IMG/VR virus record: IMGVR_UViG_3300009502_000023
Span: 37,731-101,730 of that record
Reading direction: 5' to 3' (one strand)
Length of the DNA: 64,000 nt
Source of the DNA: a virus
Lineage: Duplodnaviria > Heunggongvirae > Uroviricota > Caudoviricetes
Part shown: positions 9,731 through 40,276 of the stretch, one piece after another
Layout: every line of letters begins with the position of its first letter
How positions within the stretch are numbered: the first letter of the stretch is position 1
Program-made: the position numbers and the translations under genes
The notes under the pieces: model-generated
The model's input: only the letters and a program-made list of their open reading frames with translations
What the model was told of the DNA's origin: nothing
The model's database searches: none

Positions 9731-11548
9731 ATGTTAGACGTACCTGTTGGTCCAAAACTTATTTTTCATCTTCGTAAAGTATTAACTGAAAATCCTGAAT
9801 TGACAAATCTTTTACCATCGTTTGGTTGTGGTCGTATTGCTTCTAATGGAACTTATTATCCAACACACAAAATTAAGTTTAGAACTGATCCGGCCAATGA
9901 TGCTTTCACATACGATTATAATTCTGAACCAACTATCAGAATCTGTGATCTGTCACCTAAACATATCACCAATAAAAGTATTTACAGATCTTCTAATAAT
10001 AGTTCTGATGATGTTAGTAAATATTATCATAGGAATATGTATAATTCTAATTGGACCGGTCAATATAACGCAAAGAGACTCGGTATCAATGTAGATCGTA
10101 GTATTAAAGTTAAGGGATACGTACTTAATTTTAATGATATGCGAACTGCTATCAAAGAGAGTTTCTCCAACTACAGATATGATTCTATTATTGATTGTTT
10201 GTGGGAAATTTATTATATTGGTGAAAGAAATTGTGTTTTGGGTATTTCTGCTAATACTGGTATTCTGTATATCAGAAAGCAGACACTTTCTAAAATGTTA
10301 TTATCAAACAACGACGAAGCAATTCAGCGAGGTCTTAAGAATCTGTTGAAATGTTTTAATTTTACATTGCAGAAATATGAAAGTCTTAATATTCGAAATT
10401 ATGTTGAAGATATGACTCAACTAATTGAGAATGATGTAATTAATAAAGTCGTTAATACAAATGAGTTCTCTAGACGCTATTATGATAATGCTGGCCCCAA
10501 CGCAGCAAGTCAGAAAAGATTTATGGAAGATATTAAACACCACATTGATGAATCGATCAAAACATCTCTTCGTGGTTCTATCTTTGGTGTGAATGAGAAA
10601 TATTCATACTCAGATATTCTGAGTAATATTATCAATAAGCACAAAACTATCGAAAAAAGTATTTTTGATGATGGTTTTGCTAAAGGAATGCGTATTGGAA
10701 TGAAACTGGAAATGATTGGCTGGGTTCCGGTCAATATTAACTTTCCAGATAATTCAAACTCTACTGATGTGTGGTGGGCGAATGATGTCAATATTGTTCC
10801 TTCTACTTTTATCTTTAGGGAAGAACGTTATGAAATTCCTGAGGATAAAAGAAAAGCAAAAATTACAAAATTGTTCATCAACCAGAATGGTATAATGAGA
10901 TGTCAGGGCGAACATCCCAATGTAAGCGGAAGTAAAGTTTGCATGGGTGATCTCACCATTGATTACTCAAAGTCTGTTTCTGACATTCAAGATGCTTTGG
11001 ATAGAGCCAAATCATTATTGGATATTATCAATTATGATTCTGCATATTCTAGTAGAGATCGAGACGAATTACTTAAGTGTTCTACTAAAGTTCGTTCTCT
11101 ATCTACTCGTGATATAGAAAATGGTATTCCCAAAAAGACAGAACTTAAAATTAAAGAAGTTAATTTCTCTGATAATGATGATGAGGAAGAAGTTGAAGAG
11201 ACTGCTACTGCAGTGGATGATTCTGAAACAGTAATTGTTCATAATGAGGAAGTTATTGCTTCTCTTATTGATGATATTGAACCAGATGATCCAAATCGGC
11301 AGGGTGCTCGTCAACAAGTTCCTAACCATGTAGAAGACGATGAGAATGAAGAACAGATTCAAGTTCAAACTCACGTAATATCAAACAATGTAGACACGAT
11401 TGAACAAATTCGAGTTGTAGAAGAAACTGGTGAAAGACGTCCGGTTGTATTCTATACAACATCTGGTGATGCTGTAATAATTCAAGCTCCATCAGAACAC
11501 GCTGTTGATAGTCATGAATTAGTACTTGGAGATATCAATCTACTGTAG
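9731..11548 (+). CDS. large hypothetical protein containing a UBC/E2-like active-site motif (HPNVSGSKVCMGDL) and acidic C-terminus
   Basis: ORF 605 aa; HPN-x6-C(M)GDL at about nt 10912-10950 matches E2 HPNxxxxGx(I/V)C(L/M)xxL signature; immediately upstream of E1 and JAB genes. Confidence 0.5.
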   Translation: MLDVPVGPKLIFHLRKVLTENPELTNLLPSFGCGRIASNGTYYPTHKIKFRTDPANDAFTYDYNSEPTIRICDLSPKHITNKSIYRSSNNSSDDVSKYYHRNMYNSNWTGQYNAKRLGINVDRSIKVKGYVLNFNDMRTAIKESFSNYRYDSIIDCLWEIYYIGERNCVLGISANTGILYIRKQTLSKMLLSNNDEAIQRGLKNLLKCFNFTLQKYESLNIRNYVEDMTQLIENDVINKVVNTNEFSRRYYDNAGPNAASQKRFMEDIKHHIDESIKTSLRGSIFGVNEKYSYSDILSNIINKHKTIEKSIFDDGFAKGMRIGMKLEMIGWVPVNINFPDNSNSTDVWWANDVNIVPSTFIFREERYEIPEDKRKAKITKLFINQNGIMRCQGEHPNVSGSKVCMGDLTIDYSKSVSDIQDALDRAKSLLDIINYDSAYSSRDRDELLKCSTKVRSLSTRDIENGIPKKTELKIKEVNFSDNDDEEEVEETATAVDDSETVIVHNEEVIASLIDDIEPDDPNRQGARQQVPNHVEDDENEEQIQVQTHVISNNVDTIEQIRVVEETGERRPVVFYTTSGDAVIIQAPSEHAVDSHELVLGDINLL

Positions 11549-11560
11549 GGTTAAAACAAC

Positions 11561-12313
11561 ATGAGTAATAGTAATCTAGAACGAGAGATGTTTAATCGGC
11601 AGCAAGATATCGAATTGTACAAATTCGAGTTTGCTATCATAATTGGTGTTGGTGGAATTGGGAGTTGGGTTGCTTTGAACATGGCATTAACAGGTAATGT
11701 TACTAACATGTTTTTAATTGACCCAGATACGATTGAAAGCAGTAATTTGAATAGAACACCATTCAGATTCTGTGATATCGGTCAACCCAAGGTTGTCGCT
11801 CTAAAGTATTTGATTTTAGAACGACGAGCTGTAAATATTGAAATCTATCAGCAAAAAACAAATGCTGCATTAGCTACAGAAATTGCAGATAAGACTATTA
11901 AGGTTGATCGGTATGCATCTCGAACTAATAAGAAACAAATATCAAACAATGGTGTGATTGTTGATTGTCGAGATGATGTCTATACAGACATGTATGATTT
12001 TCCATACAAGTATTATAAAGTGGGTTATGATGGTTTATCGATAACGATTGATGGAAATCCCAGGAACACAGCAGTCTGGGGTCGAGCCAATGGTTATCGT
12101 CATACGCCATCATTTATTTGTCCTGCACAACTTGCAGCTAACTTGGTAGTTACTGATATTCTGACAATGAAAGATTCTGATGAAACAAATGAGAATGAAA
12201 CAGATACTGTTGAAAATGTAAACGCATTTGATAATAGTGGAAGATTAAACAAAGTCGTAACCTTTGATGTTAAAGATCTCGTCGAGATGATTTACCACAA
12301 GGTTAATCCGTAG
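11561..12313 (+). CDS. ThiF/MoeB/E1-family adenylyltransferase
   Basis: IIIGVGGIGSWVALNMA Rossmann GxGxxG; DPDTIESSNLNRTPF (D.D.VE.SNLNRQ-like); DCRDD (DCTDN-like) motif. Confidence 0.7.
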   Translation: MSNSNLEREMFNRQQDIELYKFEFAIIIGVGGIGSWVALNMALTGNVTNMFLIDPDTIESSNLNRTPFRFCDIGQPKVVALKYLILERRAVNIEIYQQKTNAALATEIADKTIKVDRYASRTNKKQISNNGVIVDCRDDVYTDMYDFPYKYYKVGYDGLSITIDGNPRNTAVWGRANGYRHTPSFICPAQLAANLVVTDILTMKDSDETNENETDTVENVNAFDNSGRLNKVVTFDVKDLVEMIYHKVNP

Positions 12314-12330
12314 TCACAAGGAAATAGTTA

Positions 12331-13341
12331 ATGAGCGTGAAAGAACTTAGCTTTGAAGACGACGGAGAAGATTCTGTCGGCACAGAAGTGAAAGAAGGAA
12401 TACAAACTGTTAAATCAGGAGCAGAAAAGGGAACTTGGATTAACCAAAAACGAGTTCCCCTGACTCTTCCGTTAGTTTGTTTGATTCCCCATAAAATATT
12501 AATTGTAATTCGAAGTGTTGAAAAAATGATCATTAGTTCTGGAATGGGAACAATGGAAGTTGGAATGTTCCTTAACGGAAAAATGAATGAACAGGGTAAG
12601 TTGGTTCTGTCTGAAGATTTTTATATTCCCCAGCAAAAGGTTGGTGGGGCAAGTATTGATTTTCAGGAAGAACCACCTGATCTAAAATGGAATGGTGTAA
12701 TTCATCGTCACCCTGATGGATGTAAGAGCTTCAGTGGTACCGATGGAACTTATATTAATGCAAATTTTGAGTTTTCATTGTTGTATGTATGTAATGAAAT
12801 TACCCTTGGCATCTATAATTTTGACAATAACGGATTCAGATTTCAGGTTCCTTTAAAGACCGAGATCATGTATCCGATTATGGAACTGCAAGATAAGGAT
12901 GCAATCTTAGCTAAGATTACTAAGGTTCAGTATCCTTCTTCTACATCATCTGTGGTGGTTCAGCGTGGTTATGGTGGCGTACACCAGAATCATACTGGAA
13001 ATCCTCTTTGGTCAGACCGGAGAGATTTTAGACACCGAACATTACTTGCGGAAGATAATCAAATGGACTTTGATTCTTTCTTCCAACAAGAGGATAATCG
13101 AATTGTTGGGGATGATACTATCATCACTGATGATACGATTGAAGATGATAATGAAGAACTCTGCATTTGTAAAAAGTGTGGAGAAGTTCAGTGGATTGAG
13201 GACTATCCTCATTGCTGTGAAAGCTGTGAAGAGTTCCTTTCTGAAGATCAGGTTGAACTTGTCTCCACTCAGGATGTTCGTTGTTATGATGAACAGACCA
13301 GAGATAAGATTATACTGCTTCTTCAAGAGAAACAGGCATAG
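12331..13341 (+). CDS. JAB/MPN (JAMM) metalloprotease with C-terminal acidic region and zinc ribbon
   Basis: HRHPDGCKSFSGTD = HxHx7Sx2D JAMM motif at about 12703-12744; C-term CICKKCGEV...CCESCEEF. Confidence 0.65.
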   Translation: MSVKELSFEDDGEDSVGTEVKEGIQTVKSGAEKGTWINQKRVPLTLPLVCLIPHKILIVIRSVEKMIISSGMGTMEVGMFLNGKMNEQGKLVLSEDFYIPQQKVGGASIDFQEEPPDLKWNGVIHRHPDGCKSFSGTDGTYINANFEFSLLYVCNEITLGIYNFDNNGFRFQVPLKTEIMYPIMELQDKDAILAKITKVQYPSSTSSVVVQRGYGGVHQNHTGNPLWSDRRDFRHRTLLAEDNQMDFDSFFQQEDNRIVGDDTIITDDTIEDDNEELCICKKCGEVQWIEDYPHCCESCEEFLSEDQVELVSTQDVRCYDEQTRDKIILLLQEKQA

Positions 13342-13390: not shown

Positions 13391-13464
13391 GCACGCATAG
13401 TTCAATGGTAGAACTGGAGATTTCCAATCTTCAAATGTGGGTTCAATTCCCACTGCGTGCTCCA
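13391..13464 (+). tRNA. tRNA-Gly (anticodon UCC), CCA encoded
   Basis: manual fold: acceptor GCACGCA/TGCGTGC, D-arm GTTC-AATGGTA-GAAC, anticodon stem GGAGA/TCTTC with loop TTTCCAA, T-arm GTGGG-TTCAATT-CCCAC, discriminator T, CCA. Confidence 0.85.
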
Positions 13465-14552: not shown

Positions 14553-15544
14553 GCGGATTTCAATCTGATACGTTGGATAAAAAAGGTTTACCTAAACGTT
14601 TAGGTTTCATTATAAAGTCATTAGACTTTATAGTTGATTTTTGCAATCAAAAGAATATTTTTGATTTTGATTTTTTAGGCGATCTTGTAAATGATAAAAG
14701 TATTATTTATACCGTAGCACAAGATGCTTTTAAAGATTTTCTTGTTAGACGGAAGAATTGCAGATTCAGAATCATTAGTGGTAACCATGATCTATCCTCT
14801 ACTGGTGATTTGCAAAAAAGTGCAATATCTGTATTCTCGGAATATCCTAACGTGAAATGTTTTGTTGGCGGACCGGAAGTAATTGATAATATCACTTACA
14901 TTCCTTTCACCGAGAAATTTTTAGAAACAATTAAAATATCACCACCATCTGATATTTTAATCACACATCTTGGCTTGAATGAAGCACATCTTCAATCCGG
15001 GTTGTCTAAAGTTGATAAGATTTCAATTAAAGATTTATCTAAATTTAAATTAGCTTTGATGGGGCACTATCATCGCCCACAGGATTTTAGCAATGGAACT
15101 ACTCATGTGTGGTACGCGGGATCTTTAACGAATAAAGATTGGAACGATAAGAATGAGCAGAAAAGATTTCTTATCTATGATACTGAAACACTAGAAGTAG
15201 AATCTGTTCCTATTGATTGTGGTATTCCTCAATTTATTGAGTTGACTATCAATAATGAAACTGATAAGATAGAAATCTTAAAGCAAGCAGAAATTGCAAA
15301 AAATAATGGAAACAATGTTCGTATTAAAAATAAATCAGAAACAGTAATTAAAGATGAAGTATCTGGTGGCGTTTTAGTTCTTGAACAGCATGATGTGGAT
15401 ATTACCGATAGAGGTATTACCATATCAATGACCAAAGAAGAACAACTTAAGAAATATCTTTCGATTAAAGAAATTCCTGAAGTTGAATGCCCAGAATATT
15501 TGTCTCTGATTGCAAAGTATGATTTATTACACAAGGATGAATAA
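14516..15544 (+). CDS. sbcD: SbcD/Mre11-like nuclease (T4 gp47-like)
   Basis: motifs GDAHL, GDLVND, GNHD, GHYH of Mre11 phosphoesterase; directly upstream of SbcC-like gene. Confidence 0.8.
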   Translation: MSKRAAVGDAHLSGFQSDTLDKKGLPKRLGFIIKSLDFIVDFCNQKNIFDFDFLGDLVNDKSIIYTVAQDAFKDFLVRRKNCRFRIISGNHDLSSTGDLQKSAISVFSEYPNVKCFVGGPEVIDNITYIPFTEKFLETIKISPPSDILITHLGLNEAHLQSGLSKVDKISIKDLSKFKLALMGHYHRPQDFSNGTTHVWYAGSLTNKDWNDKNEQKRFLIYDTETLEVESVPIDCGIPQFIELTINNETDKIEILKQAEIAKNNGNNVRIKNKSETVIKDEVSGGVLVLEQHDVDITDRGITISMTKEEQLKKYLSIKEIPEVECPEYLSLIAKYDLLHKDE

Positions 15545-18132
15545 TGCAAGACATTTATATTGAAAAGATTCGTCTTAAGAATGTTAGATGTCACCATGAA
15601 ATGGAAATGGATTTTCCTGTAGATAGTTTTACCTTGATACTAGGAAAAAATGGAGCTGGAAAATCCACAATTCCAAAAGCCGTATGTATGGCATTATATG
15701 GTGATGATGGTTCTGTTAAAGGTGATAGATTATCCATATCTGATATGGTTAATGATAAGGTCAAGAAAGATCTTGAAATTGTTTTAAATTTCAGAGTTGT
15801 TGAAGGTGAACGAACCGATAACTATGAAATTCAACTTTACCAGGAACATAAGAAATATCATAATAAATTCTTTCTGTTAAAAAATGGAGTTGATATTTCT
15901 GGTAAGACAAAAACCGAAACATATGAAGCAATTGAACATCTTATTTATCCTCGTGATGTTTTCATGAATACCGTATACTTCACGCAGCAGGTAAAAGACT
16001 TCTTTACAGCGTTAACTAATTCTGAACAGAAGATGATATTCGATGCTATCTTATCAACTCAAGATTATCGTCTATACTATAACAATGCAGATAAAGCATT
16101 AAAGCAACTTACTGCGGAATATAATTCTGCTGATTCTATGTTATCTGGTATGCTTGCTGCAGTTGATATTAAGAAACAATCTATTACACAATTTCTTGCC
16201 AGTAAACAAAAGGCAGTTGATAATAATGCAGTCATTCTTTCTGATTTGACTCAGAAGAAAATCAATAAAGAGAATGAACTTCAAGTTCAGCAAGATGAAA
16301 AAGAAACTAACAATTTTGACCAGGTTAAAATTGATAGTTTAAATAGTAATCTTTATAAGTTACAGTCTGAACGAGATGCTATTCAATTGACTATTGATAC
16401 AGCAATTAAGAAGTTAAATACACAACAAGAGTTAGATGTATCAACAAAGAAATCTGAACTTCTTGATATCAAAGCTAAAGCCAGAGTAGAAATTAGTGAT
16501 AAGTTTAATAAAGAAATTGCCAGTCTAAATACTCAGTTAAATGTGATTCTCACATCAATTTCTGAAACTGAGAAATTATATGATACTTCTTCATTGTTTA
16601 AAGATCATAGTTCTTTTAATCTTGAAAAGCAAAAAGAGATTAATTTTGTAAATAAAGAACTTGGCGGATTAGATTCTTTATTCTCTACTCATATTATCGA
16701 AGATGAAAAAAGAGAAAGACTCAGAATCATAGAATCTAATATTCAAGATATTAAGGATAAAGCATCTAGAATTAAAGAGAATGTTGCTACTCTAAAATCT
16801 AAAATTTCTGGTTTAGAGAAAACCATTAATGAAGATGAATCTAAACTAAATGAACCAACACCGATATGTTCAAAGTGTCGAAGACCATTTCATGGTTCAG
16901 ATGGTGTTACTACAATTAAAGAATCTATTGAAGTTCTGAAAAAAGAAGTAGCTGATTTAAATTCTAAGATTCAAATTCATATACCAGAGATGGATTCTCT
17001 TAGAACTAATTATCAAGAAACTGCTGCTCTCAAGGATTCAACCAATACATCTTACAATGAAAAGATTCAAGAAGTTATCAATAAGAAAACATCTCAATCA
17101 GAAACTTTAATTCGTAAACGAGAGTTGATTCAATTGGAGATTATTGATCATAAGAATCAGATTGATTCTCGGGTTCAAGAAATGTTAGCTAAGAAAGAAG
17201 TTGCAACTACTGAACTTAAGAAGAAACAGATTCTTATTGAAAATCAAATCTCTGGTATTGATAAAACATTAGAAACTAAATTGGGTGTCATAGAACATAA
17301 TTATACAAAAGATATGGAATCCATTACACAAGAACATATTAAAAAGTATGATATTCTTCGTGAAAAGTGCAACTTGGATTTTAATAATCAAGTAATAACA
17401 TTAGATCTTCAAATAACCAATATCAGTACGGAGCTAGTAACACTTGATATTCAGCGCAAGAAGATGGTCGAAATAAATGCTGCTATCCAAACTTTAAACG
17501 CTGAATTAAAAATGTGCATGGAACGAATTATTGAGTGTCAAAATTTCGTATATGATGATACTCAAATTCAAAAACTAAGTTCTGATATTACTGATAACGA
17601 AGCGATTTTGAAAAATTTAGTAGACAAGAAAAAAGGAATTCAAAGAGAGATTAAGATTCTTGAATTTTGGAAAGAATCATTCTCTGATACCGGTATTAAG
17701 AGTATGTTGATTGATATGGCAATTCCTCATATGAATGAGTCCGTTGCTATTGCTCTAGAGAAGATTGTACCTGGTGTTTTCACAGTTTCTTTTGATACTT
17801 TGAAGATGACCAAATCGGGTGACGTCAGAGATAAATTCAATGTCAACATTCTTCATAATATTAAAGGTACGAATAGTCATAAGAAATTATCTGGTGGCGA
17901 AAAGAGAATAGTTGATTTATCCTGTATGGAAGCACTAAAATCTTTAGCTGAAAGATTATACGGGAAGAGAATTCACAATTCATTTTATGATGAAGCGTTG
18001 GATTCTTTAGATGATGATAGCTGTCAAGCATTTGGACAGGCAATCAGAATCTTATCCGCAGGAAAGAATATTACTTTAATTGCACATAAAGCTGCTGAAA
18101 ATGTTGAACCTGATAGAGTGTTCACACTGTAA
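15544..18132 (+). CDS. sbcC: SbcC/Rad50-like SMC ATPase (T4 gp46-like)
   Basis: Walker A GKNGAGKST, long coiled coil with CSKCRRPF zinc hook, signature LSGGEKR, Walker B FYDEALDSLDDD. Confidence 0.85.
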   Translation: MQDIYIEKIRLKNVRCHHEMEMDFPVDSFTLILGKNGAGKSTIPKAVCMALYGDDGSVKGDRLSISDMVNDKVKKDLEIVLNFRVVEGERTDNYEIQLYQEHKKYHNKFFLLKNGVDISGKTKTETYEAIEHLIYPRDVFMNTVYFTQQVKDFFTALTNSEQKMIFDAILSTQDYRLYYNNADKALKQLTAEYNSADSMLSGMLAAVDIKKQSITQFLASKQKAVDNNAVILSDLTQKKINKENELQVQQDEKETNNFDQVKIDSLNSNLYKLQSERDAIQLTIDTAIKKLNTQQELDVSTKKSELLDIKAKARVEISDKFNKEIASLNTQLNVILTSISETEKLYDTSSLFKDHSSFNLEKQKEINFVNKELGGLDSLFSTHIIEDEKRERLRIIESNIQDIKDKASRIKENVATLKSKISGLEKTINEDESKLNEPTPICSKCRRPFHGSDGVTTIKESIEVLKKEVADLNSKIQIHIPEMDSLRTNYQETAALKDSTNTSYNEKIQEVINKKTSQSETLIRKRELIQLEIIDHKNQIDSRVQEMLAKKEVATTELKKKQILIENQISGIDKTLETKLGVIEHNYTKDMESITQEHIKKYDILREKCNLDFNNQVITLDLQITNISTELVTLDIQRKKMVEINAAIQTLNAELKMCMERIIECQNFVYDDTQIQKLSSDITDNEAILKNLVDKKKGIQREIKILEFWKESFSDTGIKSMLIDMAIPHMNESVAIALEKIVPGVFTVSFDTLKMTKSGDVRDKFNVNILHNIKGTNSHKKLSGGEKRIVDLSCMEALKSLAERLYGKRIHNSFYDEALDSLDDDSCQAFGQAIRILSAGKNITLIAHKAAENVEPDRVFTL

Positions 18133-18144
18133 ACCGGAGAGAGA

Positions 18145-18402
18145 ATGAACAAGATGAAGAAAAGCAAGAAAAGTAAAAAAAGTAATGGGATTTTTGGTTT
18201 GATTGATGATATTGGTGATTCGCTTCTTGCCGCTGATATTTCAATTAAAATCAATGATCATGAAATTTCTAAAGATAAGAAAAATAATTTATCTTATGTT
18301 GTAGTTAAAAACAATATCAGAACTGCTATTTCTTATCATGATAAACGATTTGGGTTTGCAAGAATTCCTGTTGAGAATTCTTCTAATACAGAAAATAAAT
18401 AA
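18145..18402 (+). CDS. hypothetical lysine-rich protein
   Basis: ORF 85 aa. Confidence 0.35.
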   Translation: MNKMKKSKKSKKSNGIFGLIDDIGDSLLAADISIKINDHEISKDKKNNLSYVVVKNNIRTAISYHDKRFGFARIPVENSSNTENK

Positions 18403-18902
18403 TGTCACCCACATCATTAGTTATAAAATCCGCAAGTTTGATGTATCTGATGGATTTTGATGGAACGCTTGTTGGCAGTGATACCTGGGGTGGTTTTTTA
18501 AACAACGCCAAGTTATGTTTCAACAAGCTCCATTTTAATCCTGATTCATTGGACATTAGATGGTCTATACTGACAGCTAGACCAAAAATGGATAGATTTT
18601 TAATAAAGATGGTTTGTGGATATCATCAGATGAACCCAAATCAAATTTTTACAGGTCCAACATTTCGATATACTTTTAAGAGTCATTCTGAAGAAGCTAA
18701 GTATAAAGAGACAGTTATTAAAGGAATTTTAGACGATAAAATTAAAGTCGATTATACCGATGAAAAAGTTGACAAAATATTTTACATTGACAACAATGAT
18801 AAAATTACAATTCCTTTAAATCAAAATAGAGGCGAGTATAGATATCTTGCAATTAGTGTTTCTGATTTTATAACAAAAAATTTTTACGAAGTAATCTTAT
18901 AA
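18402..18902 (+). CDS. HAD-superfamily hydrolase-like protein
   Basis: YLMDFDGTLV = HAD motif I DxDGT. Confidence 0.5.
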   Translation: MSPTSLVIKSASLMYLMDFDGTLVGSDTWGGFLNNAKLCFNKLHFNPDSLDIRWSILTARPKMDRFLIKMVCGYHQMNPNQIFTGPTFRYTFKSHSEEAKYKETVIKGILDDKIKVDYTDEKVDKIFYIDNNDKITIPLNQNRGEYRYLAISVSDFITKNFYEVIL

Positions 18903-18911
18903 AGGAGAATC

Positions 18912-19328
18912 ATGACCCCACAAAAGACTCCCGTTCGAATCAACATCCAGCAATCTAATCAAAAGACAATTATTACATATGATATGAAAGTTGATAACAA
19001 TATTCGATCAATCGCAAGACGCGGACATGATATTGCTAAAACATTTAGAAGTATTGGTATTGTGTTTAAAAGAATCATTCCTGCATCTACTGATATATCG
19101 GTAAGAAAACAATTCAAGCTTCCTGTAGATTCTGATTTGATTTGTGTCGAACTGAAATACAACACTGACAAATCTGATTCAGATAAACTACTATTGATTA
19201 ATGATATTAAAGATCAACTTATGAATTTAAATTCTTATTCTGTGGTTAATGAAGGTATTTACAAATATGATTTATCAACACAGGTTTATAGATTATTACT
19301 AAAGATTAATGAAAATGTATCAAAATGA
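18912..19328 (+). CDS. hypothetical protein
   Basis: ORF 138 aa with AAGGAG RBS. Confidence 0.4.
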   Translation: MTPQKTPVRINIQQSNQKTIITYDMKVDNNIRSIARRGHDIAKTFRSIGIVFKRIIPASTDISVRKQFKLPVDSDLICVELKYNTDKSDSDKLLLINDIKDQLMNLNSYSVVNEGIYKYDLSTQVYRLLLKINENVSK

Positions 19329-19867
19329 ACAATGAATTGATAATCGTTGGATGTGGAACTATAGGCGCATCATTGTCATTAAATCTAGCAAGAAAAAAAT
19401 TGATTTCTAAATTAACAATTTATGATTTTGATGTTGTTAGTTTTGGTTCTGAGAAATCAATTTATCCTTTTAATTCGTGCGCTTCTGGGTTATCAAAAGT
19501 TGAAAATATAAAATTTAGATGTAAAAAAATTAATCCTGATTTAGATATTGTTGTAAATGAAGAGCGAGTATTAAAACCTATAGTTACAGATCAATTTATT
19601 ATTGATTGTCGTGATTGTAAAACACCCAATTTAAATTCTAAAATTCGATTATCACTAGATGGTAGTATTCTGTATATTGATAGTAGAAAAAAGATTCCAG
19701 AAACTAAAAATTATTATAGATACTATTATAGCAGAAATCCAGAATTTATAGAAACAGCAAATCAAATTATCATTAATTATTTGGTTAACGATGAATATAC
19801 ATGTAATCAGTTGAGAGTATATAATACTGAAACGTCTGAATATCATATCTTGCCAACGGAGAATTGA
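19325..19867 (+). CDS. short ThiF/E1-like adenylyltransferase paralog
   Basis: IIVGCGTIGASLSLNLA GxGxxG; LTIYDFDVV; DCRDC motif, paralogous to DCRDD of the 11561 gene. Confidence 0.5.
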   Translation: MNNELIIVGCGTIGASLSLNLARKKLISKLTIYDFDVVSFGSEKSIYPFNSCASGLSKVENIKFRCKKINPDLDIVVNEERVLKPIVTDQFIIDCRDCKTPNLNSKIRLSLDGSILYIDSRKKIPETKNYYRYYYSRNPEFIETANQIIINYLVNDEYTCNQLRVYNTETSEYHILPTEN

Positions 19868-20148
19868 AAATGCCAGAATGTCTAATAAAAAATAGATTTA
19901 TTAACTTACAGAAATTCTCTACTGATTTGATTACTCATACGGGAAATAATTTAGAAAAACAAACATTTGTGGTTGGTATTCCATCTAGAGAGAGTATTAC
20001 CATTAAAGCTAATAGTATTGATGATTTAGTTATCAAACTTGCAAAATTATCAAGATGTCTGCCACACCATAGTTGTTTCATGACCTATACATTCGAAGCA
20101 AATTTGAATGTTAATCTTACAATTCTTCCGGTGACAGATGCAGCATGA
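19864..20148 (+). CDS. hypothetical 94-aa protein between E1-like and E2-like genes (candidate Ubl partner, unproven)
   Basis: size and position only; ends ...PVTDAA not GG. Confidence 0.35.
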   Translation: MKMPECLIKNRFINLQKFSTDLITHTGNNLEKQTFVVGIPSRESITIKANSIDDLVIKLAKLSRCLPHHSCFMTYTFEANLNVNLTILPVTDAA

Positions 20149-20770
20149 TCAAGAGATTAAGAAAATTCTGTACCAGCATAATTATGATTTTTCAAATATA
20201 AATTTCAAAACCAACTTAAATAATACTATCGATCAAATCGAACATGAACTAATTTACAAATCGATTGGTTCAGAATCTGCTGAAAAGATCATATGCGATT
20301 TGCGTAAACTTAAACAATTTTCAGAACGGAACGTTTTAAAAAATGGAATTCTTAAAGAAGAATTGGATCAATTAAAAAACAATCAGTATACAATAGAAAA
20401 TGATTCTGTTACTTGCCATAAATTTATTGGCTGTAAATCAATCAGAGAATCCAGAACTATTCATCAGTTGAACCAAAATCAGATGAAACAGTTGGTTGAT
20501 CATGGTTATGGAATAAAATCTTTTAAAGTATTGATAGATATACAAATAAAAGATTTGACATGCTGTGGCAAACATCCAAATTTGAGTAAAACTAATACCT
20601 TCTGTTGGGATGAGAATTTAAGGGGTCTTGATTTTACAAATGATAATCTAGGTATAATTGAGGGAATGCTATCTTCATTTAATTTAGATTCTTGTTTTAT
20701 ACAACCGGATGAACGACAATTTTTAATTGACATAGCTCGATCGGGAAATCAAAAATGTTTTCATTTATAG
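20138..20770 (+). CDS. hypothetical protein with UBC/E2-like motif HPNLSKTNTFCWDENL
   Basis: HPN-x7-C-x-D spacing identical to E2 HPNINSNGSICLDIL; adjacent to E1-like gene. Confidence 0.4.
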   Translation: MQHDQEIKKILYQHNYDFSNINFKTNLNNTIDQIEHELIYKSIGSESAEKIICDLRKLKQFSERNVLKNGILKEELDQLKNNQYTIENDSVTCHKFIGCKSIRESRTIHQLNQNQMKQLVDHGYGIKSFKVLIDIQIKDLTCCGKHPNLSKTNTFCWDENLRGLDFTNDNLGIIEGMLSSFNLDSCFIQPDERQFLIDIARSGNQKCFHL

Positions 20771-20794
20771 TGTTCTGATATCGGAGAAATAATA

Positions 20795-21322
20795 ATGACA
20801 AAAAAGAAAAAAAATCCATTTACTTATATATGTAACGATTTATTACCCGGTACTGATTATTCATTTCATCATTTGATTGAATTGGGTGTTTTATACGGAT
20901 ATACCTATGATGAAGTGATGAAAGCATTATTTACAGAAATTCAAAAGAAGAATCCTAGAATTGTTTTGGGATTTAACAAGAATGCTTTCTTGAATCCAAA
21001 AAATAGATCTAATAAAAAAGTAATTGAACCTATAAAAACAGAAACAGAAATAATTGCTGAAGCAGTTATCAAGAAAAATAAAGAATTTATTCAGAAATGG
21101 ATAGAGACTGAATTTGATAAAAAGCTAGAATCACTGGTTCAGAAATATGTGGTATCTGAGTTTAAGGAAGAAGTTCTTCCGGTTCTTATCGACCGCATCG
21201 ATGGTAAGTTTAAAAACATTCAAGAATCACATACAAAATCTATTAAGGTAGAAGTTATTCAAATTCTATCTGATATGATTATCAAAGCAGCTCAAGAGGA
21301 GATTCCAAGTAATGAAGATTAA
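20795..21322 (+). CDS. hypothetical protein
   Basis: ORF 175 aa. Confidence 0.45.
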   Translation: MTKKKKNPFTYICNDLLPGTDYSFHHLIELGVLYGYTYDEVMKALFTEIQKKNPRIVLGFNKNAFLNPKNRSNKKVIEPIKTETEIIAEAVIKKNKEFIQKWIETEFDKKLESLVQKYVVSEFKEEVLPVLIDRIDGKFKNIQESHTKSIKVEVIQILSDMIIKAAQEEIPSNED

Positions 21323-24161
21323 TTTCTTTAACGTAGATGAGTTTTGTGAAACGATCCCAGAGATTACTACTAATAAAATCTATGCAAAGAGAGGTTTTCA
21401 TCCAAATGGTCTTTTCTCTGAAAAGTTCTTTGGACCGGTAAGGACTTGTACTTGTGGTTGTGGTATTTATTGGGGTCGGTCTAAGATTGGTGAACTCTGT
21501 AGTCAGTGTGGAGTTGAGATTGGGTATTCGAGTTTGAGAAGAAAGAAGTTTGCAAAGATTGCTCTTCCCTTCCCGGCTCTTAATCCAATTATGTACTATC
21601 TTATTCTAAAAGCTGGTAAAGCTACTATTGGAAATGTTATTCATGATATGATTTTCAATGATACTACGATGGGTTATTATTTCGATACTGATTCTAGAAA
21701 GTATATTCAGGTTAAGAAACCAAGCATTGAGAGTGAGACACCTATAATTCCAGAAGGAACAATTCTGTATTCTGGAGCTAATGGTATCTATGAACTAATT
21801 AAGTTTGAATCTGAAAGAATGATGGAAACAAATACGACGTGGAAGTTTATTAATACAAATATTAGTAAATTTTTTATGTCGAATGTTATTGTATGTCCTC
21901 CCGAGTTTAGACCAGTGTCGAAAACTAAAGACGTACAAATGCGTGATAAGATGAATGAGTTCTATATGACTATTCTGAATAATAGTTTGATGGTCAAGAA
22001 TGATGTGACCACTTATGAAAATTCAGAAATTCATATGACCAACTTTAGAAATCAACAGAGATATATCTTCAATTTCTATGAATATATTTTCTCAAAGTTT
22101 TCTAAGAAGTCTGGACTAATCAGAGGTTCTATTCTTGGTAAGAGAATTGACTTTTCAGCTCGTGCTGTAATTAGTCCTGAACCAAAATTACTTCTTGATG
22201 AATGTTCTCTTCCTTATATTATAGCATTAGAATTATTTAAGCTTCCTATTGTAAATCGATTGTTGGAGATGAAAAATTACGGAGATCGTAAATTCGTAAG
22301 ATATGATCCAACTATTGATTATGTTAATGATTGTATTAAGTTGAAAGACCTTGCTTTACTTGATATTGTCAGAGAAATAACAGCAGGAAAATTGGTATGC
22401 TTAAATCGTCAACCAACTTTGCATCGAATGGGTTTGTTGTCATTTAAGATTCTTATCAATACAGACCATGTAATTAAGATTCATCCGATGGCGTGCGAAC
22501 CATATAATGCAGACTTTGATGGCGATCAGATGGCTGCATATATTTCTCTATATCCTGAATCTGAAGCTGAAAATAAAGAGAAGATGTTTATCTTAGCTAA
22601 CTTAGTATCTCCATCTACAGGTAAGATGATTCTTGGTGCAAATCAAGATATTTTGCTTGGGTTGTACTTAATGACTAAACCAGATGAAACTAAGAAAGTT
22701 ACTTATAAAAATATCGAAACTTATGAGGGTCGAGTTAAGTTTAATAGTATCTTCCCTGATAATTTTCCGTTTTTGAATAGGACGATTAATAAGAAGGAAC
22801 TGCATGTTCTCTTGAATATTTTAGTTCAGGTTTATCCTCCTGAGACTGTTAAGAATATTCTTGATAATATGAAGAATATGGGATTCTATGAAACTACAAC
22901 TCGGGGTACCACATTCTCGTTGAAAAACTTGAGTGGTGAAGGTATCCATGATGTAATTTCTGGTATTGTGGATGATCCAACAAAGACACCACAAGAAAAA
23001 TTCCATCTTCTTGCTGATCATCCCCTAAAGAAACAAATTCAAGAAGATTTCCCCTACAAGGATTTTATTGAATCTGGATCACGTGGTTCCTGGGAACAGG
23101 CAAATCAATTGATCTTCTGTAGAGGTTATATGTCTAACTCAAAGGGCGAGATGGTGGAAACACCGATTAAGAATAATCTCGTTCATGGTTTGACAAAAGA
23201 TGAGTTCTTTACATCCTGTTATGGATCTCGCAAGGCATTACTTGATGTAGCTCTTAATACTGCAGTATCTGGATATTTGACTCGCAAATTAGTTTATTGT
23301 ACTATTAATCTTGAACTTGATGAAAAGAAAGATGATTGTGGTACAACCGATTACTTCGAAGTTAAGATTCCAGAATTAATGACTGATGATAAGTTCAACG
23401 AGTTGGTTGCTGGCATTCCTGATCTCATTGAACGAAAGATTATGAAAGATCATCTTAAACACAAGTATGAAGAGATGGACCCAATTAAACTTACCAGAAG
23501 TTTAATTCATCGTTATATGACTGTTACATCAGAAACTGGTGAAACTATATTGAAGTTGATTGATGAAGATAATTATCATACCTTGTTTGGTAAGACAGTT
23601 AAGCTTCGTTCACCAATCTTCTGTAAGTCAGCTAGAATTTGTAAGACATGTTATGGTAAGATGAGTGATAAGGTTCATTCAAAGTATGTTGGTGTGTTAG
23701 CAGCTCAAGCCCTTGGCGAAGTTGCAACTCAGCTTACTCTTCGGACTTTCCACACTGGTGGTGTTGCGAAGGTGAGCAAAGATAAAGATTCATCACACCA
23801 AGATATCATTAGTGACTTGACAGTAGTTAATAGATTGCTGCATGGATCGGCTAGTGGTTCCTACTCTGAATTGATCTTGAAATTGTTCTCGGTTTATTTG
23901 AGACATAAGGTATTACTGTTGATTAATTTTGAATTGGTAGTCAGCCAACTCATGCGCATAGGAAACATGAGATGGAGATTGCACCCAAATCGAGATACTG
24001 AAAATTATCAATTGGTTTCGGTTGAGAATGTACCTTCTAGGGAGAGTTTCCTTCTGGCATTAGCATTCTCGAAGCCGTATAATTATATCGTTAGTGGTAT
24101 TCTTGGTAATAGTCAAACGACCGATGGTATTCTCGAGAAGATGTTAATTAATCGAATTTAG
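21312..24161 (+). CDS. rpoC: RNA polymerase beta-prime-like subunit (compact, single polypeptide)
   Basis: N-term Zn ribbon CTCGCG...CSQCG; universal catalytic NADFDGDQMA at about 22507-22536. Confidence 0.85.
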   Translation: MKINFFNVDEFCETIPEITTNKIYAKRGFHPNGLFSEKFFGPVRTCTCGCGIYWGRSKIGELCSQCGVEIGYSSLRRKKFAKIALPFPALNPIMYYLILKAGKATIGNVIHDMIFNDTTMGYYFDTDSRKYIQVKKPSIESETPIIPEGTILYSGANGIYELIKFESERMMETNTTWKFINTNISKFFMSNVIVCPPEFRPVSKTKDVQMRDKMNEFYMTILNNSLMVKNDVTTYENSEIHMTNFRNQQRYIFNFYEYIFSKFSKKSGLIRGSILGKRIDFSARAVISPEPKLLLDECSLPYIIALELFKLPIVNRLLEMKNYGDRKFVRYDPTIDYVNDCIKLKDLALLDIVREITAGKLVCLNRQPTLHRMGLLSFKILINTDHVIKIHPMACEPYNADFDGDQMAAYISLYPESEAENKEKMFILANLVSPSTGKMILGANQDILLGLYLMTKPDETKKVTYKNIETYEGRVKFNSIFPDNFPFLNRTINKKELHVLLNILVQVYPPETVKNILDNMKNMGFYETTTRGTTFSLKNLSGEGIHDVISGIVDDPTKTPQEKFHLLADHPLKKQIQEDFPYKDFIESGSRGSWEQANQLIFCRGYMSNSKGEMVETPIKNNLVHGLTKDEFFTSCYGSRKALLDVALNTAVSGYLTRKLVYCTINLELDEKKDDCGTTDYFEVKIPELMTDDKFNELVAGIPDLIERKIMKDHLKHKYEEMDPIKLTRSLIHRYMTVTSETGETILKLIDEDNYHTLFGKTVKLRSPIFCKSARICKTCYGKMSDKVHSKYVGVLAAQALGEVATQLTLRTFHTGGVAKVSKDKDSSHQDIISDLTVVNRLLHGSASGSYSELILKLFSVYLRHKVLLLINFELVVSQLMRIGNMRWRLHPNRDTENYQLVSVENVPSRESFLLALAFSKPYNYIVSGILGNSQTTDGILEKMLINRI

Positions 24162-24219: not shown

Positions 24220-25164
24220 ATGAATAAGTTGTGTAAGTGTGGTTGTGGTCAAAAAACAGTATTTAATAAAAATTCTAAACAATTTAATATGTTTATCAAA
24301 GGACACAGTAATAAAGGAAAAATTCATTCTGCTGAAACTAGAAATAAAATATCAGTTCGATTATCTGGTAAAGTACCATGGAATAAAGGTGCGCCTGCAT
24401 CAGAAGAATCTAAACTTAAAAATTCTATGGCTCACATCGGGAGAGAACATTCAGAAGAATCAAAAAGAAAAATATCTGAAAATAATGCTAAAACCATGTT
24501 GGGAAAGAACTGGTCTAAAGAAGTAAAACAAAAAATTAGAGAATCTAGATTGGGTAAAAAAGCATCTGCAGAAACTCGATTAAAAATGAGAGAGTGGCAA
24601 CTTGGAAAAATTATTCCAGAAATATCTAAAGAGAAAATAAAAGAAACATGGAATAATAAAAGCAAAACGGAATTAGATATTATAAAACAAAAAAGACAAC
24701 ATACGTTATTATATAATTATGGATTTGATAATTTTTCTAAAACACCACAATTTAAAGAAATGGCAAGAATTGCATCTATTAAAATGGTCGAAAACCAAAT
24801 AGCCAGTGGGGAACCACTATCTCCTAAAATTGGACCACAAGAACGATCATTTCTAAATGAACTCCAACAGTATACCTTGTATAAAATTATTCGAAACGAT
24901 TCTTCTTTTAGATATATTAAAGGTAGATTTCCAGATGGACATATATTAGAATTAAAACTTTTCATTCAATTCGATGAACGATTTCATTTCTCCGATATTG
25001 CTTGTAAAATCTATAAACAAGATGATATAGATTGTACTCTTCAACTTGCTTCTCTCGGTTATATCATTTTTCGAGTTTCAGAGAAACAATGGAAAGAAAA
25101 CAAAGAGAAAACAATTTCTGATTTCAAAAACTTTTTGGTACTGTTAGATCAAGGAAGAAACTAA
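24220..25164 (+). CDS. homing-endonuclease-like protein (Zn-ribbon + NUMOD3 repeats HSAETRNKIS/HSEESKRKIS + PD-(D/E)xK-like C-term) inserted between RNAP subunit genes
   Basis: MNKLCKCGCG N-term; multiple NUMOD3-like repeats; C-term FPDGHILELKLFIQFDE nearly identical to 13482 paralog. Confidence 0.6.
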   Translation: MNKLCKCGCGQKTVFNKNSKQFNMFIKGHSNKGKIHSAETRNKISVRLSGKVPWNKGAPASEESKLKNSMAHIGREHSEESKRKISENNAKTMLGKNWSKEVKQKIRESRLGKKASAETRLKMREWQLGKIIPEISKEKIKETWNNKSKTELDIIKQKRQHTLLYNYGFDNFSKTPQFKEMARIASIKMVENQIASGEPLSPKIGPQERSFLNELQQYTLYKIIRNDSSFRYIKGRFPDGHILELKLFIQFDERFHFSDIACKIYKQDDIDCTLQLASLGYIIFRVSEKQWKENKEKTISDFKNFLVLLDQGRN

Positions 25165-40223: not shown

Positions 40224-40276
40224 TCAAAGTTTAAGTTAATAGTAATCAGTTATTGGAAACAAACAAAGAGGTACAA

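What the first reader, a model, noticed from the sequence alone, without database searches (positions are those of the whole stretch)
18912..20770. Second, paralogous E1-like + small protein + E2-like set
A short ThiF-like gene carries GCGTIGASL, DFDVV and DCRDC, echoing the DCRDD of the first E1. It is followed by a 94-aa ORF in the position a Ubl would occupy. Next comes a 210-aa protein with HPNLSKTNTFCWDENL, the same HPN-x7-C-x-D spacing as eukaryotic E2s. Two independent E1/E2-motif pairings in one genome make chance motif matches unlikely. They suggest two conjugation modules with different substrates.
Basis: inference. Interest (0 to 1): 0.6.

Follow-up and report, generated by a model that had tools for sequence, protein, structure and literature searches.

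The report
Phage-encoded ubiquitin-like tagging gene set
An uncultured tailed phage carries, just upstream of its own RNA polymerase genes, three overlapping genes that look like a stripped-down ubiquitin machinery (activating-enzyme-like, small modifier, conjugating-enzyme-like); until now such systems have been described in bacteria mainly as defences against phages.

Summary

The strongest evidence is comparative. In 32 of 32 related IMG/VR phage loci with upstream DNA, the ThiF-like and modifier parts are one fused protein ending ...ELIPETGAA. It abuts a minimal E2-like gene of about 110 aa.

Three corrections apply:
- The 180-aa E1-like has lost the arginine-finger motif and the N-terminal Arg helix, so it may be a pseudo-E1 that depends on the intact 250-aa ThiF at 11561-12313.
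- The gene after that ThiF, 12331-13341, is a JAB/JAMM peptidase.
- The window shows one modifier and one JAB, so one distributed system is at least as likely as two independent modules.

No biochemistry exists and the target is unknown. I rate this a new variant of a known kind, found only in uncultured phages.

The parts
18912..19328 (+). 138-aa conserved ORF of unknown function. Its stop overlaps the start of the E1-like gene by 4 nt.
   Evidence: An ORF of 123-145 aa occupies the same position in L001, L004, L006 and L011, and the first three align well with it. It has no Pfam, PHROG, NCBIfam or PADLOC hit. It shows no similarity to the ThiS-like proteins of sister phages.
19325..19867 (+). 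180-aa ThiF/E1-like protein (E1'). The Rossmann adenylation core is retained but the arginine finger is lost, so it may be a pseudo-E1 or a modifier-binding partner.
   Evidence: Pfam ThiF scores 37.5 bits against a gathering threshold of 28.1, over profile positions 23-103 of 238. NCBIfam ThiF/MoeB and PADLOC E1-E2 models also hit. The MoeB alignment keeps GxGxxG, Asp, Lys and D97, which equals MoeB D130; N70 and R73 are both replaced by Ser. This loss is conserved in 6 homologues.
19349..19366 (+). GCGTIG, the nucleotide-binding glycine loop of E1'.
19448..19471 (+). SEKSIYPF, the segment that replaces the canonical N-L-x-R arginine-finger motif.
   Evidence: Alignments with MoeB and with the 250-aa paralogue.
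19604..19618 (+). DCRDC. The second Asp aligns with the Mg-binding Asp130 of MoeB. DCRD is the clade signature shared with the 250-aa ThiF and with the fused proteins.
19870..20148 (+). 92-aa ubiquitin-like (beta-grasp) protein. The mechanical ORF listing starts at TTG 19864. The invariant C-terminal tail is PVTDAA (20128-20145).
20138..20770 (+). 210-aa E2-like protein. It has an N-terminal four-helix bundle (aa 1-80) and a divergent UBC-like domain (aa about 84-205). Its start overlaps the last 11 nt of the modifier gene.
20573..20581 (+). HPN motif of the E2-like domain (aa 146-148).
   Evidence: His is invariant and Pro and Asn are nearly invariant across the family.
20603..20605 (+). Cys156, the predicted catalytic (thioester) cysteine of the E2-like domain.
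   Evidence: It is conserved in at least 90% of sequences in all alignments and aligns with the catalytic Cys of E2s.
20795..21322 (+). 175-aa conserved ORF of unknown function between the E2-like gene and the RNA polymerase beta' gene.
   Evidence: It is present in L001, L004, L006 and L009, with a conserved C-terminal half. No family hits.
9731..11548 (+). 605-aa protein of the first module. It contains a paralogous E2-like domain at about aa 355-453 (HPNVSGSKVCMGD at 10913-10951; NYDSAY at 11030-11047).
   Evidence: It matches the core-domain HMM with E 8.6e-6 and aligns in A5. The motif is conserved in L001 and L011.
11561..12313 (+). 250-aa ThiF/E1-like protein with an intact adenylation site. 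It keeps the N-terminal FNRQ, GVGGIG, NLNR and DCRDD.
   Evidence: Pfam ThiF 61.4 bits. NCBIfam and PADLOC hits. Alignments.
12331..13341 (+). 336-aa JAB/JAMM metallopeptidase-like protein with a C-terminal CxxC...CxxC ribbon. It is the likely deconjugating or processing enzyme.
   Evidence: The JAMM motif E(78)...HRHPDGCKSFSGTD (aa 125-138) is conserved in L001, L011 and L012. Pfam Prok-JAB is the only or best hit for three orthologues, but below threshold (E 0.003-0.03).

Best explanation
The three overlapping genes at 19325-20770 are the modifier arm of a phage-encoded ubiquitin-like conjugation system. The other parts of the system are an intact E1, a second E2-like protein and a JAB peptidase, and they lie about 6 kb upstream at 9731-13341.

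Proposed mechanism:
1. The 92-aa beta-grasp protein is held by the 180-aa ThiF-like protein. In sister phages that protein is its covalently fused N-terminal domain.
2. The free C-terminal Ala of the modifier is adenylated with ATP. The catalyst is most likely the intact 250-aa ThiF, alone or as a heterodimer with the arginine-less 180-aa paralogue.
3. The activated modifier passes as a thioester to Cys156 of the 210-aa UBC-like protein, and possibly also to the Cys of the 605-aa paralogue.
4. It is then transferred to an amino group of a target that has not been identified. The JAB peptidase reverses or edits the tag.

Shown here: the folds and homologies, the conserved motifs, the gene fusion and the tight co-occurrence.

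Inferred only: every chemical step, the division of labour between the two ThiF-like proteins, and the existence and identity of a target. The system's conserved position next to the phage's own RNA polymerase genes, in a clade of large uncultured phages, suggests it serves the phage during infection. It would then tag host or phage proteins and would not be a host-defence cargo.
For: E1-like:
- Pfam ThiF is above threshold.
- The MoeB alignment keeps GxGxxG, Asp, Lys and Asp130.

Modifier:
- The AF2 model is a beta-grasp with a disordered tail.
- The C-terminus ...P[VI]T-x-x-A is conserved.
- A C-terminal Ala is an accepted substrate of a bacterial E1: the E. cloacae CdnD tail ...GRFA is adenylated by Cap2 (doi 10.1101/2022.03.31.486616).

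E2-like:
- AF2 pLDDT 95.
- Pfam UQ_con hits family members, one of them above threshold.
- The profile search of PDB sequences returns almost only E2s, in register at HPN-Cys.
- hhalign gives probability 86.5% and E 4.6e-6.
- HPN and the Cys are conserved in about 100 representatives.

Functional linkage:
- The 4-nt and 11-nt gene overlaps are visible in the sequence.
- The same order is kept in relatives whose E2-like protein is 24-55% identical to the window's.
- In 32 of 32 IMG/VR loci with upstream DNA, a ThiF-like/modifier fusion ending ...ELIPETGAA abuts a minimal E2-like gene.
- The fusion's C-terminal domain aligns end to end with the window's modifier.
- In metagenome contigs, 67 of 68 such fusion ends are followed by an HPN..C ORF.

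Remaining parts:
- A JAB motif protein follows the intact ThiF.
- An E2-ThiF-JAB triad recurs in L012.
Against: - The 180-aa E1-like lacks the Asn and Arg of the N-L-x-R motif and the N-terminal Arg helix. It has no CxxC zinc motifs and no conserved candidate catalytic Cys. On its own it may not adenylate anything.
- No E3 and no target have been identified.
- No experimental data exist for any member.
- The heterodimer idea is pure inference.
Confidence: 0.62

Rival explanations
1. This is a pseudo-enzyme or decoy module. The arginine-less ThiF-like protein and its beta-grasp partner do not conjugate anything for the phage. They mimic host ubiquitin-like defence components (Bil-type or CBASS Cap2-type systems). 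They would sequester or misdirect the host E1, E2 or Ubl, or hijack the host enzymes.
For: - The arginine finger and N-terminal Arg helix are lost in all six homologues of the 180-aa protein.
- The known bacterial E1/E2/Ubl/JAB systems act in anti-phage defence (doi 10.1101/2023.09.26.559546; doi 10.1101/2023.09.04.556158). A phage would gain from interfering with them.
- PADLOC Cap2 (E1-E2) models hit the ThiF part.
Against: - The E2-like Cys and HPN are conserved across about 100 representatives. Non-catalytic UEV-type proteins lose the Cys.
- The same genome keeps a ThiF with an intact active site and a JAB with an intact metal site.
- The modifier's extreme C-terminus is invariant, as expected for a residue that is chemically activated.
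- A complete own set of parts argues for an autonomous pathway.
Confidence: 0.15
2. There are two fully independent conjugation modules with different modifiers and substrates. Module 1 (605-aa E2-like, 250-aa E1, JAB) and module 2 (180-aa E1', 92-aa Ubl, 210-aa E2) would each work alone.
For: - The window has two E1-like and two E2-like paralogues.
- Sister phages really do carry two different beta-grasp proteins. One is ThiS/MoaD-like and ends ...KPAG[KR]KG(C), next to a MoeB-like ThiF and a JAB. The other is the ...GAA modifier fused to the DCRD-type ThiF.
Against: - No second modifier was found in the window. An HMM of the ThiS-like family finds nothing in any ORF of 40 aa or more.
- There is only one JAB.
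- The E1 of module 2 is the one with the damaged active site.
- In sister phages all parts form one contiguous cluster.
Confidence: 0.15
3. This is a sulfur-carrier or peptide-modification pathway, not protein tagging. The ThiF-like enzyme would adenylate the small protein's C-terminus to make a thiocarboxylate, as in ThiS, MoaD and TtuB. Alternatively it would make a modified peptide, as MccB does. The product might feed the phage's nucleotide or DNA-modification genes.
For: - The closest sequence models for both ThiF-like proteins are ThiF and MoeB.
- The window encodes a protein with weak similarity to QueC-like queuosine-synthesis enzymes, and relatives carry GTP cyclohydrolase I.
- Sister phages carry a ThiS/MoaD-like protein.
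Against: - Established knowledge: known sulfur carriers end in Gly-Gly and need no E2. Here the terminus is Ala-Ala.
- A Cys-bearing UBC-like protein is the modifier's invariable neighbour.
- No rhodanese, cysteine desulfurase or thiazole/molybdopterin synthase partner turned up in the family scans run on these two clusters and some neighbouring ORFs.
- A JAB peptidase accompanies the E1.
Confidence: 0.06
4. This is a chance resemblance. The HPN..C string, the Rossmann loop and the small ORF are unrelated proteins that happen to lie side by side.
For: - For the 210-aa and 92-aa proteins themselves, no curated family model (Pfam, PHROGs, NCBIfam, PADLOC) gives a significant hit.
- Foldseek against PDB is not significant.
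Confidence: 0.02

Closest known systems
Bil system (BilA Ubl, BilB E2, BilC JAB, BilD E1) of bacterial anti-phage defence
   Different: - This system is encoded in the conserved backbone of a lytic-looking phage and not in a bacterial defence island.
- It has two E1-like and two E2-like paralogues.
- The parts are split into two clusters about 6 kb apart.
- The modifier ends in Ala-Ala.
- The E2-like domain is a far more divergent, minimal version.
- No PADLOC model other than the generic E1 part of Cap2 hits.
Type II CBASS Cap2 (E2-E1 fusion) and Cap3 (JAB)
   Same: PADLOC Cap2 models and the NCBIfam 6A-MBL cap2_3 model hit both ThiF-like proteins. Cap2 adenylates a C-terminal Ala in E. cloacae CdnD. 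The triad of E2, E1 and JAB is the same.
   Different: No CD-NTase was seen in the cluster. E1 and E2 are separate proteins. The substrate is a dedicated beta-grasp protein, which is fused to a ThiF-like domain in sister phages. It is not a nucleotidyltransferase.
Bub (bacterial ubiquitination-like) operons
   Different: Bub works through serine oxyesters and has an E1 without a catalytic Cys plus a serine protease. Here the E2-like Cys is conserved and the peptidase is a JAMM type.
MoeB-MoaD and ThiF-ThiS adenylation pairs
   Same: These are the best sequence relatives of the ThiF-like core. The logic of a small beta-grasp partner encoded next to the enzyme is the same.
   Different: There is no Gly-Gly terminus and no zinc CxxC motifs. 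The arginine finger is missing in the 180-aa protein. An E2-like protein and a JAB are present.
Eukaryotic heterodimeric E1s (SAE1-UBA2, NAE1-UBA3)
   Same: They pair one active and one degenerate adenylation domain. That pairing is the inferred relation between the 250-aa and 180-aa ThiF-like proteins.
   Different: This is only an analogy. No interaction was tested. The phage proteins lack the Cys and UFD domains of canonical E1s.

Membership tests
ThiF/MoeB/E1 adenylation superfamily (PF00899): 180-aa protein | Score above the curated Pfam threshold | tested here: met
   37.5 bits against a threshold of 28.1, but only profile positions 23-103 of 238 are covered.
ThiF/MoeB/E1 adenylation superfamily (PF00899): 180-aa protein | GxGxxG loop, ribose-binding Asp, conserved Lys, Mg-binding Asp (MoeB D130) | tested here: met
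   GCGTIG, YDFD, SKV and DCRD align with the MoeB residues.
ThiF/MoeB/E1 adenylation superfamily (PF00899): 180-aa protein | Arginine finger (N-L-x-R; MoeB N70 and R73) and the trans-acting N-terminal Arg (MoeB R14) | tested here: not met
   The motif is replaced by x-S-I-Y-P-F in all six homologues. The protein starts directly at strand beta-1. The 250-aa paralogue keeps NLNR and FNRQ.
ThiF/MoeB/E1 adenylation superfamily (PF00899): 180-aa protein | ATP-dependent adenylation of a partner's C-terminus | not testable with these tools
   This needs biochemistry.
UBC / E2 ubiquitin-conjugating fold (PF00179): 210-aa protein | HPN motif followed by the catalytic Cys 7-8 residues later | tested here: met
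   HPN at aa 146-148 and Cys156. Both are conserved in the family and align in register with E2s.
UBC / E2 ubiquitin-conjugating fold (PF00179): 210-aa protein | Score above the curated Pfam threshold | tested here: not met
   The window protein has no UQ_con hit at E of 1 or lower. Homologue P0110 reaches 28.1 bits against 27, and P0108 has E 4e-4.
UBC / E2 ubiquitin-conjugating fold (PF00179): 210-aa protein | UBC fold: four-strand meander, HPN loop, Cys loop, crossover helix | tested here: inconclusive
Ubiquitin-like beta-grasp modifiers: 92-aa protein | Beta-grasp fold | tested here: met
Ubiquitin-like beta-grasp modifiers: 92-aa protein | Exposed flexible C-terminal tail ending in Gly-Gly | tested here: not met
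   The tail is flexible (pLDDT 41 for the last block). It ends in Ala-Ala: PVTDAA, PITGAA, PITTTA and PETGAA in relatives. Cap2 accepts a terminal Ala.
Ubiquitin-like beta-grasp modifiers: 92-aa protein | Genomic linkage to E1-like and E2-like genes | tested here: met
   The genes overlap. The modifier is fused to the ThiF-like domain in 29 full-length IMG/VR proteins. 67 of 68 fusion ends are followed by the E2-like ORF.
Bil / CBASS type II / Bub defence systems (as curated in PADLOC and NCBIfam) | Hits to the system-specific protein models for all components | tested here: not met
   Only the generic E1 portion of Cap2-type models hits the ThiF-like proteins. Nothing hits the modifier, the E2-like proteins or the JAB.
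JAB/JAMM metallopeptidase: 336-aa protein at 12331-13341 | E...H-x-H-x7-S-x2-D metal-binding motif | tested here: met
   MEVGMFLNG, then HRHPDGCKSFSGTD. Both are conserved in L001 and L011, and the H-x-H-x7-S-x2-D motif is also present in L012 and in the IMG/VR loci.
JAB/JAMM metallopeptidase: 336-aa protein at 12331-13341 | Score above the curated Pfam Prok-JAB threshold | tested here: not met
   14.5-17.9 bits against a threshold of 25, although it is the sole or top hit in three orthologues.

The most novel reading that the evidence does not exclude
A clade of large, uncultured, RNA-polymerase-encoding phages carries a complete ubiquitin-like conjugation machinery of its own as part of its conserved core. 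The parts are:
- an intact E1;
- a degenerate E1 that is fused or adjacent to a beta-grasp modifier with an Ala-Ala terminus;
- the smallest known UBC-type E2s, about 110 aa;
- a JAB peptidase.

The phage would use this machinery offensively during infection to tag host or phage proteins. It would be the first ubiquitination-type pathway native to viruses of prokaryotes. The active/inactive ThiF pair would parallel eukaryotic heterodimeric E1s.
Probability: 0.4. Interest if true: 0.85.

Novelty: new variant of a known kind. Interest (0 to 1): 0.68.

Why it matters
Ubiquitin-like conjugation in prokaryotes has so far been described as a bacterial weapon against phages (Bil, type II CBASS, probably Bub). 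This finding puts the same toolkit on the phage side.

- The toolkit is conserved next to the polymerase genes across a clade.
- Its hallmark fusion gives 82 hits in metagenome contigs and none in 185,579 bacterial and archaeal species genomes.
- If active, it opens a new class of phage takeover or counter-defence mechanisms.
- It provides a minimal E2 domain of about 110 aa and a natural E1-like/modifier fusion, both useful for studying how E1-E2-Ubl recognition evolved.
- It adds protein families that Pfam, PHROGs, NCBIfam and PADLOC do not recognise.

Tried and rejected
Searches that found nothing:
- Megablast of 18000-24000 against deposited phages gave no match.
- tblastn against deposited phages gave no match for the 210-aa protein, the minimal E2 P0084 or the long E2 P0104. 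The family is absent from cultured or deposited phages.
- PHROGs, NCBIfam and PADLOC gave nothing for the modifier or the E2-like proteins.
- Foldseek of the 210-aa model against PDB was not significant. The two-domain model probably dilutes the signal.
- A sequence search of PDB with the 336-aa protein was uninformative.
- An IMG/VR scan with the 9-sequence alignment A1 gave pattern matches but no true relatives.
- Contexts of P0071 and P0104 were too short to use.
- The promoter and terminator scan of 17800-21500 did not differ from shuffled sequence, so operon boundaries cannot be read.
- Literature searches found no description of a phage-encoded system of this kind. The jumbo-phage comparative review does not mention ThiF, E1-like or Ubl components.

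Ideas considered and rejected:
- HPN..C is part of a zinc knuckle formed by C99, C142, H146 and C156. This fails because C99 and C142 are not conserved in the minimal family, where only H, P, N and the downstream Cys are.
- The 138-aa ORF is the counterpart of the ThiS-like protein of sister phages. hhalign shows no similarity.
- The 215-aa ORF at 8994-9641 is a hidden ThiS-like modifier. There is no similarity.
- Recoding fuses E1' to the modifier in the window. The two genes are in different frames here and in L004. They are in frame only in L001, so there is no consistent signal.
Full report
**What the window is.** The 64-kb window is AT-rich (about 32% GC), and nearly all long ORFs lie on the + strand. 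It belongs to a tailed phage.
- It encodes a large terminase (54535-56307), a head-closure-like protein, a virion structural protein, an NAD-dependent DNA ligase and a Dda-like helicase.
- It encodes Mre11- and Rad50-like proteins (14516-18132) and unsplit multisubunit RNA polymerase beta' (21312-24161) and beta (25178-28465).
- It has no nucleotide match among 50,697 deposited phage records.
- The beta' protein is only about 27% identical to anything in that collection.

**The observation.**
- The genes at 18912-19328, 19325-19867, 19864/19870-20148 and 20138-20770 overlap by 4, 4 (or are separated by 2 nt if the ATG start is used) and 11 nt. This layout suggests translational coupling.
- The small ORF most likely starts at ATG 19870 and encodes 92 aa, because all homologues start there.

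**The E1-like gene (19325-19867).**
- Pfam ThiF scores 37.5 bits against a gathering score of 28.1, but only over the N-terminal Rossmann half of the profile.
- NCBIfam ThiF/MoeB models and PADLOC Cap2 'E1-E2' models hit the same stretch.
- In the alignment with E. coli MoeB, four features are kept: the glycine loop, the ribose Asp, the Lys, and the Mg-binding Asp (MoeB D130 aligns with D97 of DCRD). MoeB N70 and R73 of the N-L-x-R arginine-finger motif are both Ser.
- In six homologues taken from related contigs, this segment is always x-S-I-Y-P-F. The protein always starts directly at the first beta-strand, so it lacks the N-terminal R-x-x-R-Q helix that supplies a second Arg in trans in MoeB.
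- It has no CxxC zinc motifs and no conserved candidate catalytic Cys. The Cys of DCRDC is Ser in L011 and Tyr or Phe in the fused relatives.
- The 250-aa ThiF at 11561-12313 scores 61 bits and keeps FNRQ, GVGGIG, NLNR and DCRDD.
- The 180-aa protein is therefore a true member of the superfamily by homology but fails one defining catalytic feature. I treat it as a probable pseudo-E1 or modifier-binding partner.

**The small protein (19870-20148).**
- It has only seven homologues among 5.8 billion clusters and no annotation.
- They share L-P-H-[RHK] and an invariant extreme C-terminus, PVTDAA. More distant relatives have PITGAA (L009) and PITTTA (L011).
- AlphaFold2 on the 7-sequence alignment gives pLDDT 81 and pTM 0.72. 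The order of elements is helix, two strands, helix, two strands, followed by a low-confidence tail.
- The scores are modest, as is usual for such small domains, and the alignment is shallow. The fold call has moderate confidence on its own.
- A terminal Ala instead of Gly has a precedent. The tail of E. cloacae CdnD...GRFA, is adenylated by Cap2 (doi 10.1101/2022.03.31.486616).

**The E2-like gene (20138-20770).**
- A word-indexed search found only 9 relatives. An exhaustive profile search of 1.84 billion representatives found 104.
- Many of these are about 110 aa long. They consist of four strands, HPN, five to eight residues, Cys, a helix and N-L-D-x-C-Y.
- AlphaFold2 on 63 sequences gives pLDDT 95. 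The model has an N-terminal four-helix bundle (aa 1-80) and an alpha/beta domain (aa 84-205).
- Foldseek against PDB was not significant.
  1. The family profile against PDB sequences returns 41 sub-threshold hits. 38 of them are E2 enzymes aligned in register at HPN-Cys.
  2. Two family members hit Pfam UQ_con. P0110 scores 28.1 bits against a threshold of 27, and P0108 has E 4e-4.
N-L-D-x-C-Y falls on the UBC P-N-P-D-D-P segment.
  4. His146 is invariant, and Pro147, Asn148 and Cys156 are conserved in at least 90% of sequences.
- I conclude that this is a highly divergent UBC-type domain with a catalytic-type Cys. It is outside current Pfam coverage.
- A zinc-knuckle reading of C99, C142, H146 and C156 is rejected, because C99 and C142 are not conserved in the minimal family.

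**Relation to the first module.**
- The 605-aa protein (9731-11548) matches the HMM of the E2-like core at aa 355-453 with E 8.6e-6. Its motif R-C-x-G-x-HPNV...VCMGDL...INYDSAY is conserved in L001 and L011.
- The gene after the 250-aa ThiF (12331-13341) carries a complete JAMM signature: E in MEVGMFLNG, then HRHPDGCKSFSGTD. It also has a C-terminal CxxC...CxxC ribbon. The signature is conserved in L001 and L011, and the H-x-H-x7-S-x2-D motif recurs in L012.
- Pfam Prok-JAB is the only or best hit for three orthologues, though below threshold.
- Module 1 is thus the classical E2-E1-JAB triad. The same triad appears in L012: a UQ_con-positive 370-aa protein, a 212-aa ThiF and a 206-aa JAMM protein.

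**Comparative evidence, the strongest line.**
- Contigs carrying relatives of the 210-aa protein at 24-55% identity keep the same order: X, ThiF', about 90 aa, E2-like, Y, RNA polymerase beta'. Where the contig is long enough, they also keep the upstream long-E2, ThiF and JAB genes.
- A search of IMG/VR with the minimal E2 family found 33 viral loci. All 33 encode a beta' that matches the window's; the best matches are about 40% identical, and the gene starts about 0.4-0.8 kb downstream of the E2-like gene.
- In all 32 loci with upstream DNA, the E2-like gene is abutted by an ORF ending in G-A-A (...ELIPETGAA or a close variant).
- In the 29 complete copies, this ORF encodes about 285 aa. Its N-terminal 165 aa is a DCRD-type ThiF-like domain (HMM E 1e-14 to 1e-24).
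- Its C-terminal roughly 100 aa aligns end to end with the window's modifier family, including the K-F-V-N-L and P-x-T-x-A-A motifs (hhalign E 7.6e-4, 83 columns).
- This natural fusion of the E1-like and modifier parts is Rosetta-stone evidence that the window's two separate genes work together.
- The DNA pattern encoding ELIPETGAA plus a stop codon has 0 matches in 185,579 bacterial and archaeal species genomes and 82 in metagenome contigs of up to 255 kb. My information-content estimate puts the expected chance count below 1.
- 67 of the 68 matches with enough downstream DNA are followed by an HPN..C ORF. 55 of the 58 complete upstream ORFs carry GxGxxG and DCxD. Some of these contigs are the same as the IMG/VR ones.
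- In eight loci mapped in full, the fusion is preceded by a JAMM-motif protein, then a ThiF of about 230-290 aa that is MoeB-like with an intact N-x-x-R-Q motif in the five copies whose sequence I inspected, then a ThiS/MoaD-like protein of about 155 aa ending ...LEFLKPAG[KR]KG(C). Over the whole set, a JAMM motif is present in 26 of the 33 loci and the ThiS/MoaD-like protein in 27.
- That clade therefore has two beta-grasp proteins. No homologue of the second one was detected in any window ORF of 40 aa or more.

**Interpretation.**
- The three ThiF-like groups that carry DCRD are the window's 180-aa and 250-aa proteins and the fusion domain. They are closer to one another than to the MoeB-like 230-aa ThiF.
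- The fusion domain has already lost the Arg of N-L-x-R (it reads N-L-x-[NH]) but keeps a nearby Arg. The window's 180-aa protein has lost both.
- The simplest reading is that a DCRD-type ThiF/E2 pair duplicated in the window's lineage. One ThiF copy (250 aa) stayed catalytically intact. The other (180 aa) kept the link to the modifier and degenerated.
- I therefore favour one distributed conjugation system over two autonomous modules. The data cannot exclude the second option.
- The chemical steps (adenylation of the terminal Ala, thioester on Cys156, transfer to a target, JAB reversal) are all inferred from family knowledge. Nothing here tests them, and no E3 or target was found.

**Comparison with what is known.**
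- The parts list equals that of Bil systems and of the Cap2/Cap3 arm of type II CBASS. The E2-like fold also resembles BubB of Bub operons (PMC11601596).
- The system is not a member of any of these as curated. Only the generic E1 portion of Cap2 models hits.
- Six literature searches and one targeted reading found no description of such a phage-encoded system. The jumbo-phage comparative review does not mention ThiF, E1-like or Ubl components.
- That library lacks most subscription-journal papers, so prior mention elsewhere cannot be excluded.

**Verdict.**
- the pseudo-E1 character of the 180-aa protein;
- the Ala-Ala terminus of the modifier;
- one system, not two independent modules.

This is a new variant of a known kind of system, found only in uncultured phages, and it is worth experimental follow-up.

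Noticed in passing
window 12331-13341 (+): A 336-aa protein directly after the 250-aa ThiF has a complete JAMM metalloprotease motif (E78...HRHPDGCKSFSGTD, aa 125-138) and a C-terminal CxxC...CxxC ribbon. The Pfam Prok-JAB hits are below threshold. It completes an E2-E1-JAB triad with 9731-12313.
   Followed up: partly
window 9731-11548 (+): A 605-aa protein has no family hits, but an E2-like core lies at about aa 355-453. Its large N-terminal part and acidic C-terminal part are unexplained.
   Followed up: partly
L014 3577-4041 and 26 other IMG/VR loci (e.g. L033 2977-3447): Sister phages encode a ThiS/MoaD-like protein of about 155 aa ending ...LEFLKPAG[KR]KG, sometimes with one extra Cys. 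In the loci mapped in full it sits after the ~230-aa ThiF and upstream of the ThiF'-modifier fusion. It is a second, Gly-terminated modifier. No counterpart was found in the window.
   Followed up: partly
L001 9190-10011: In this relative, whose E2-like protein is 50% identical to the window's, the ThiF' gene and the modifier gene are in the same frame and separated by a single stop codon. In the window and in L004 they are in different frames.
   Followed up: no
P0086 (237 aa, metagenomic): A protein made of two tandem copies of the minimal E2-like domain. Only the second copy retains the Cys.
   Followed up: no
window 13391-13464 (+): A single tRNA-Gly (anticodon TCC) lies just after the JAB gene.
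   Followed up: no
window 13482-14552 and 24220-25164 (+): Two ORFs look like homing endonucleases (DUF7487 with weak HNH-type hits; NUMOD3). One separates the JAB gene from the Mre11/Rad50 genes. The other sits between the RNA polymerase beta' and beta genes. Relatives carry similar insertions at the same sites (L001, L004).
   Followed up: no
window 21312-24161 and 25178-28465 (+): The phage encodes unsplit multisubunit RNA polymerase beta' and beta subunits. They are only about 27% identical to anything in the deposited-phage collection. The ubiquitin-like cluster is always immediately upstream of beta'.
   Followed up: partly
window 44859-46709 (+); L001 18073-18723: The window protein is glutamine-amidotransferase-like with weak similarity to QueC-like queuosine-synthesis enzymes. 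Relatives carry a GTP cyclohydrolase I gene. Together these hint at 7-deazaguanine-type nucleotide or DNA modification.
   Followed up: no
window 40001-42000: GC content rises locally to 0.42 against a background of about 0.32. The rise covers a 536-aa ORF (40253-41863) whose only hit is a PHROG annotated as 'lipoprotein'.
   Followed up: no
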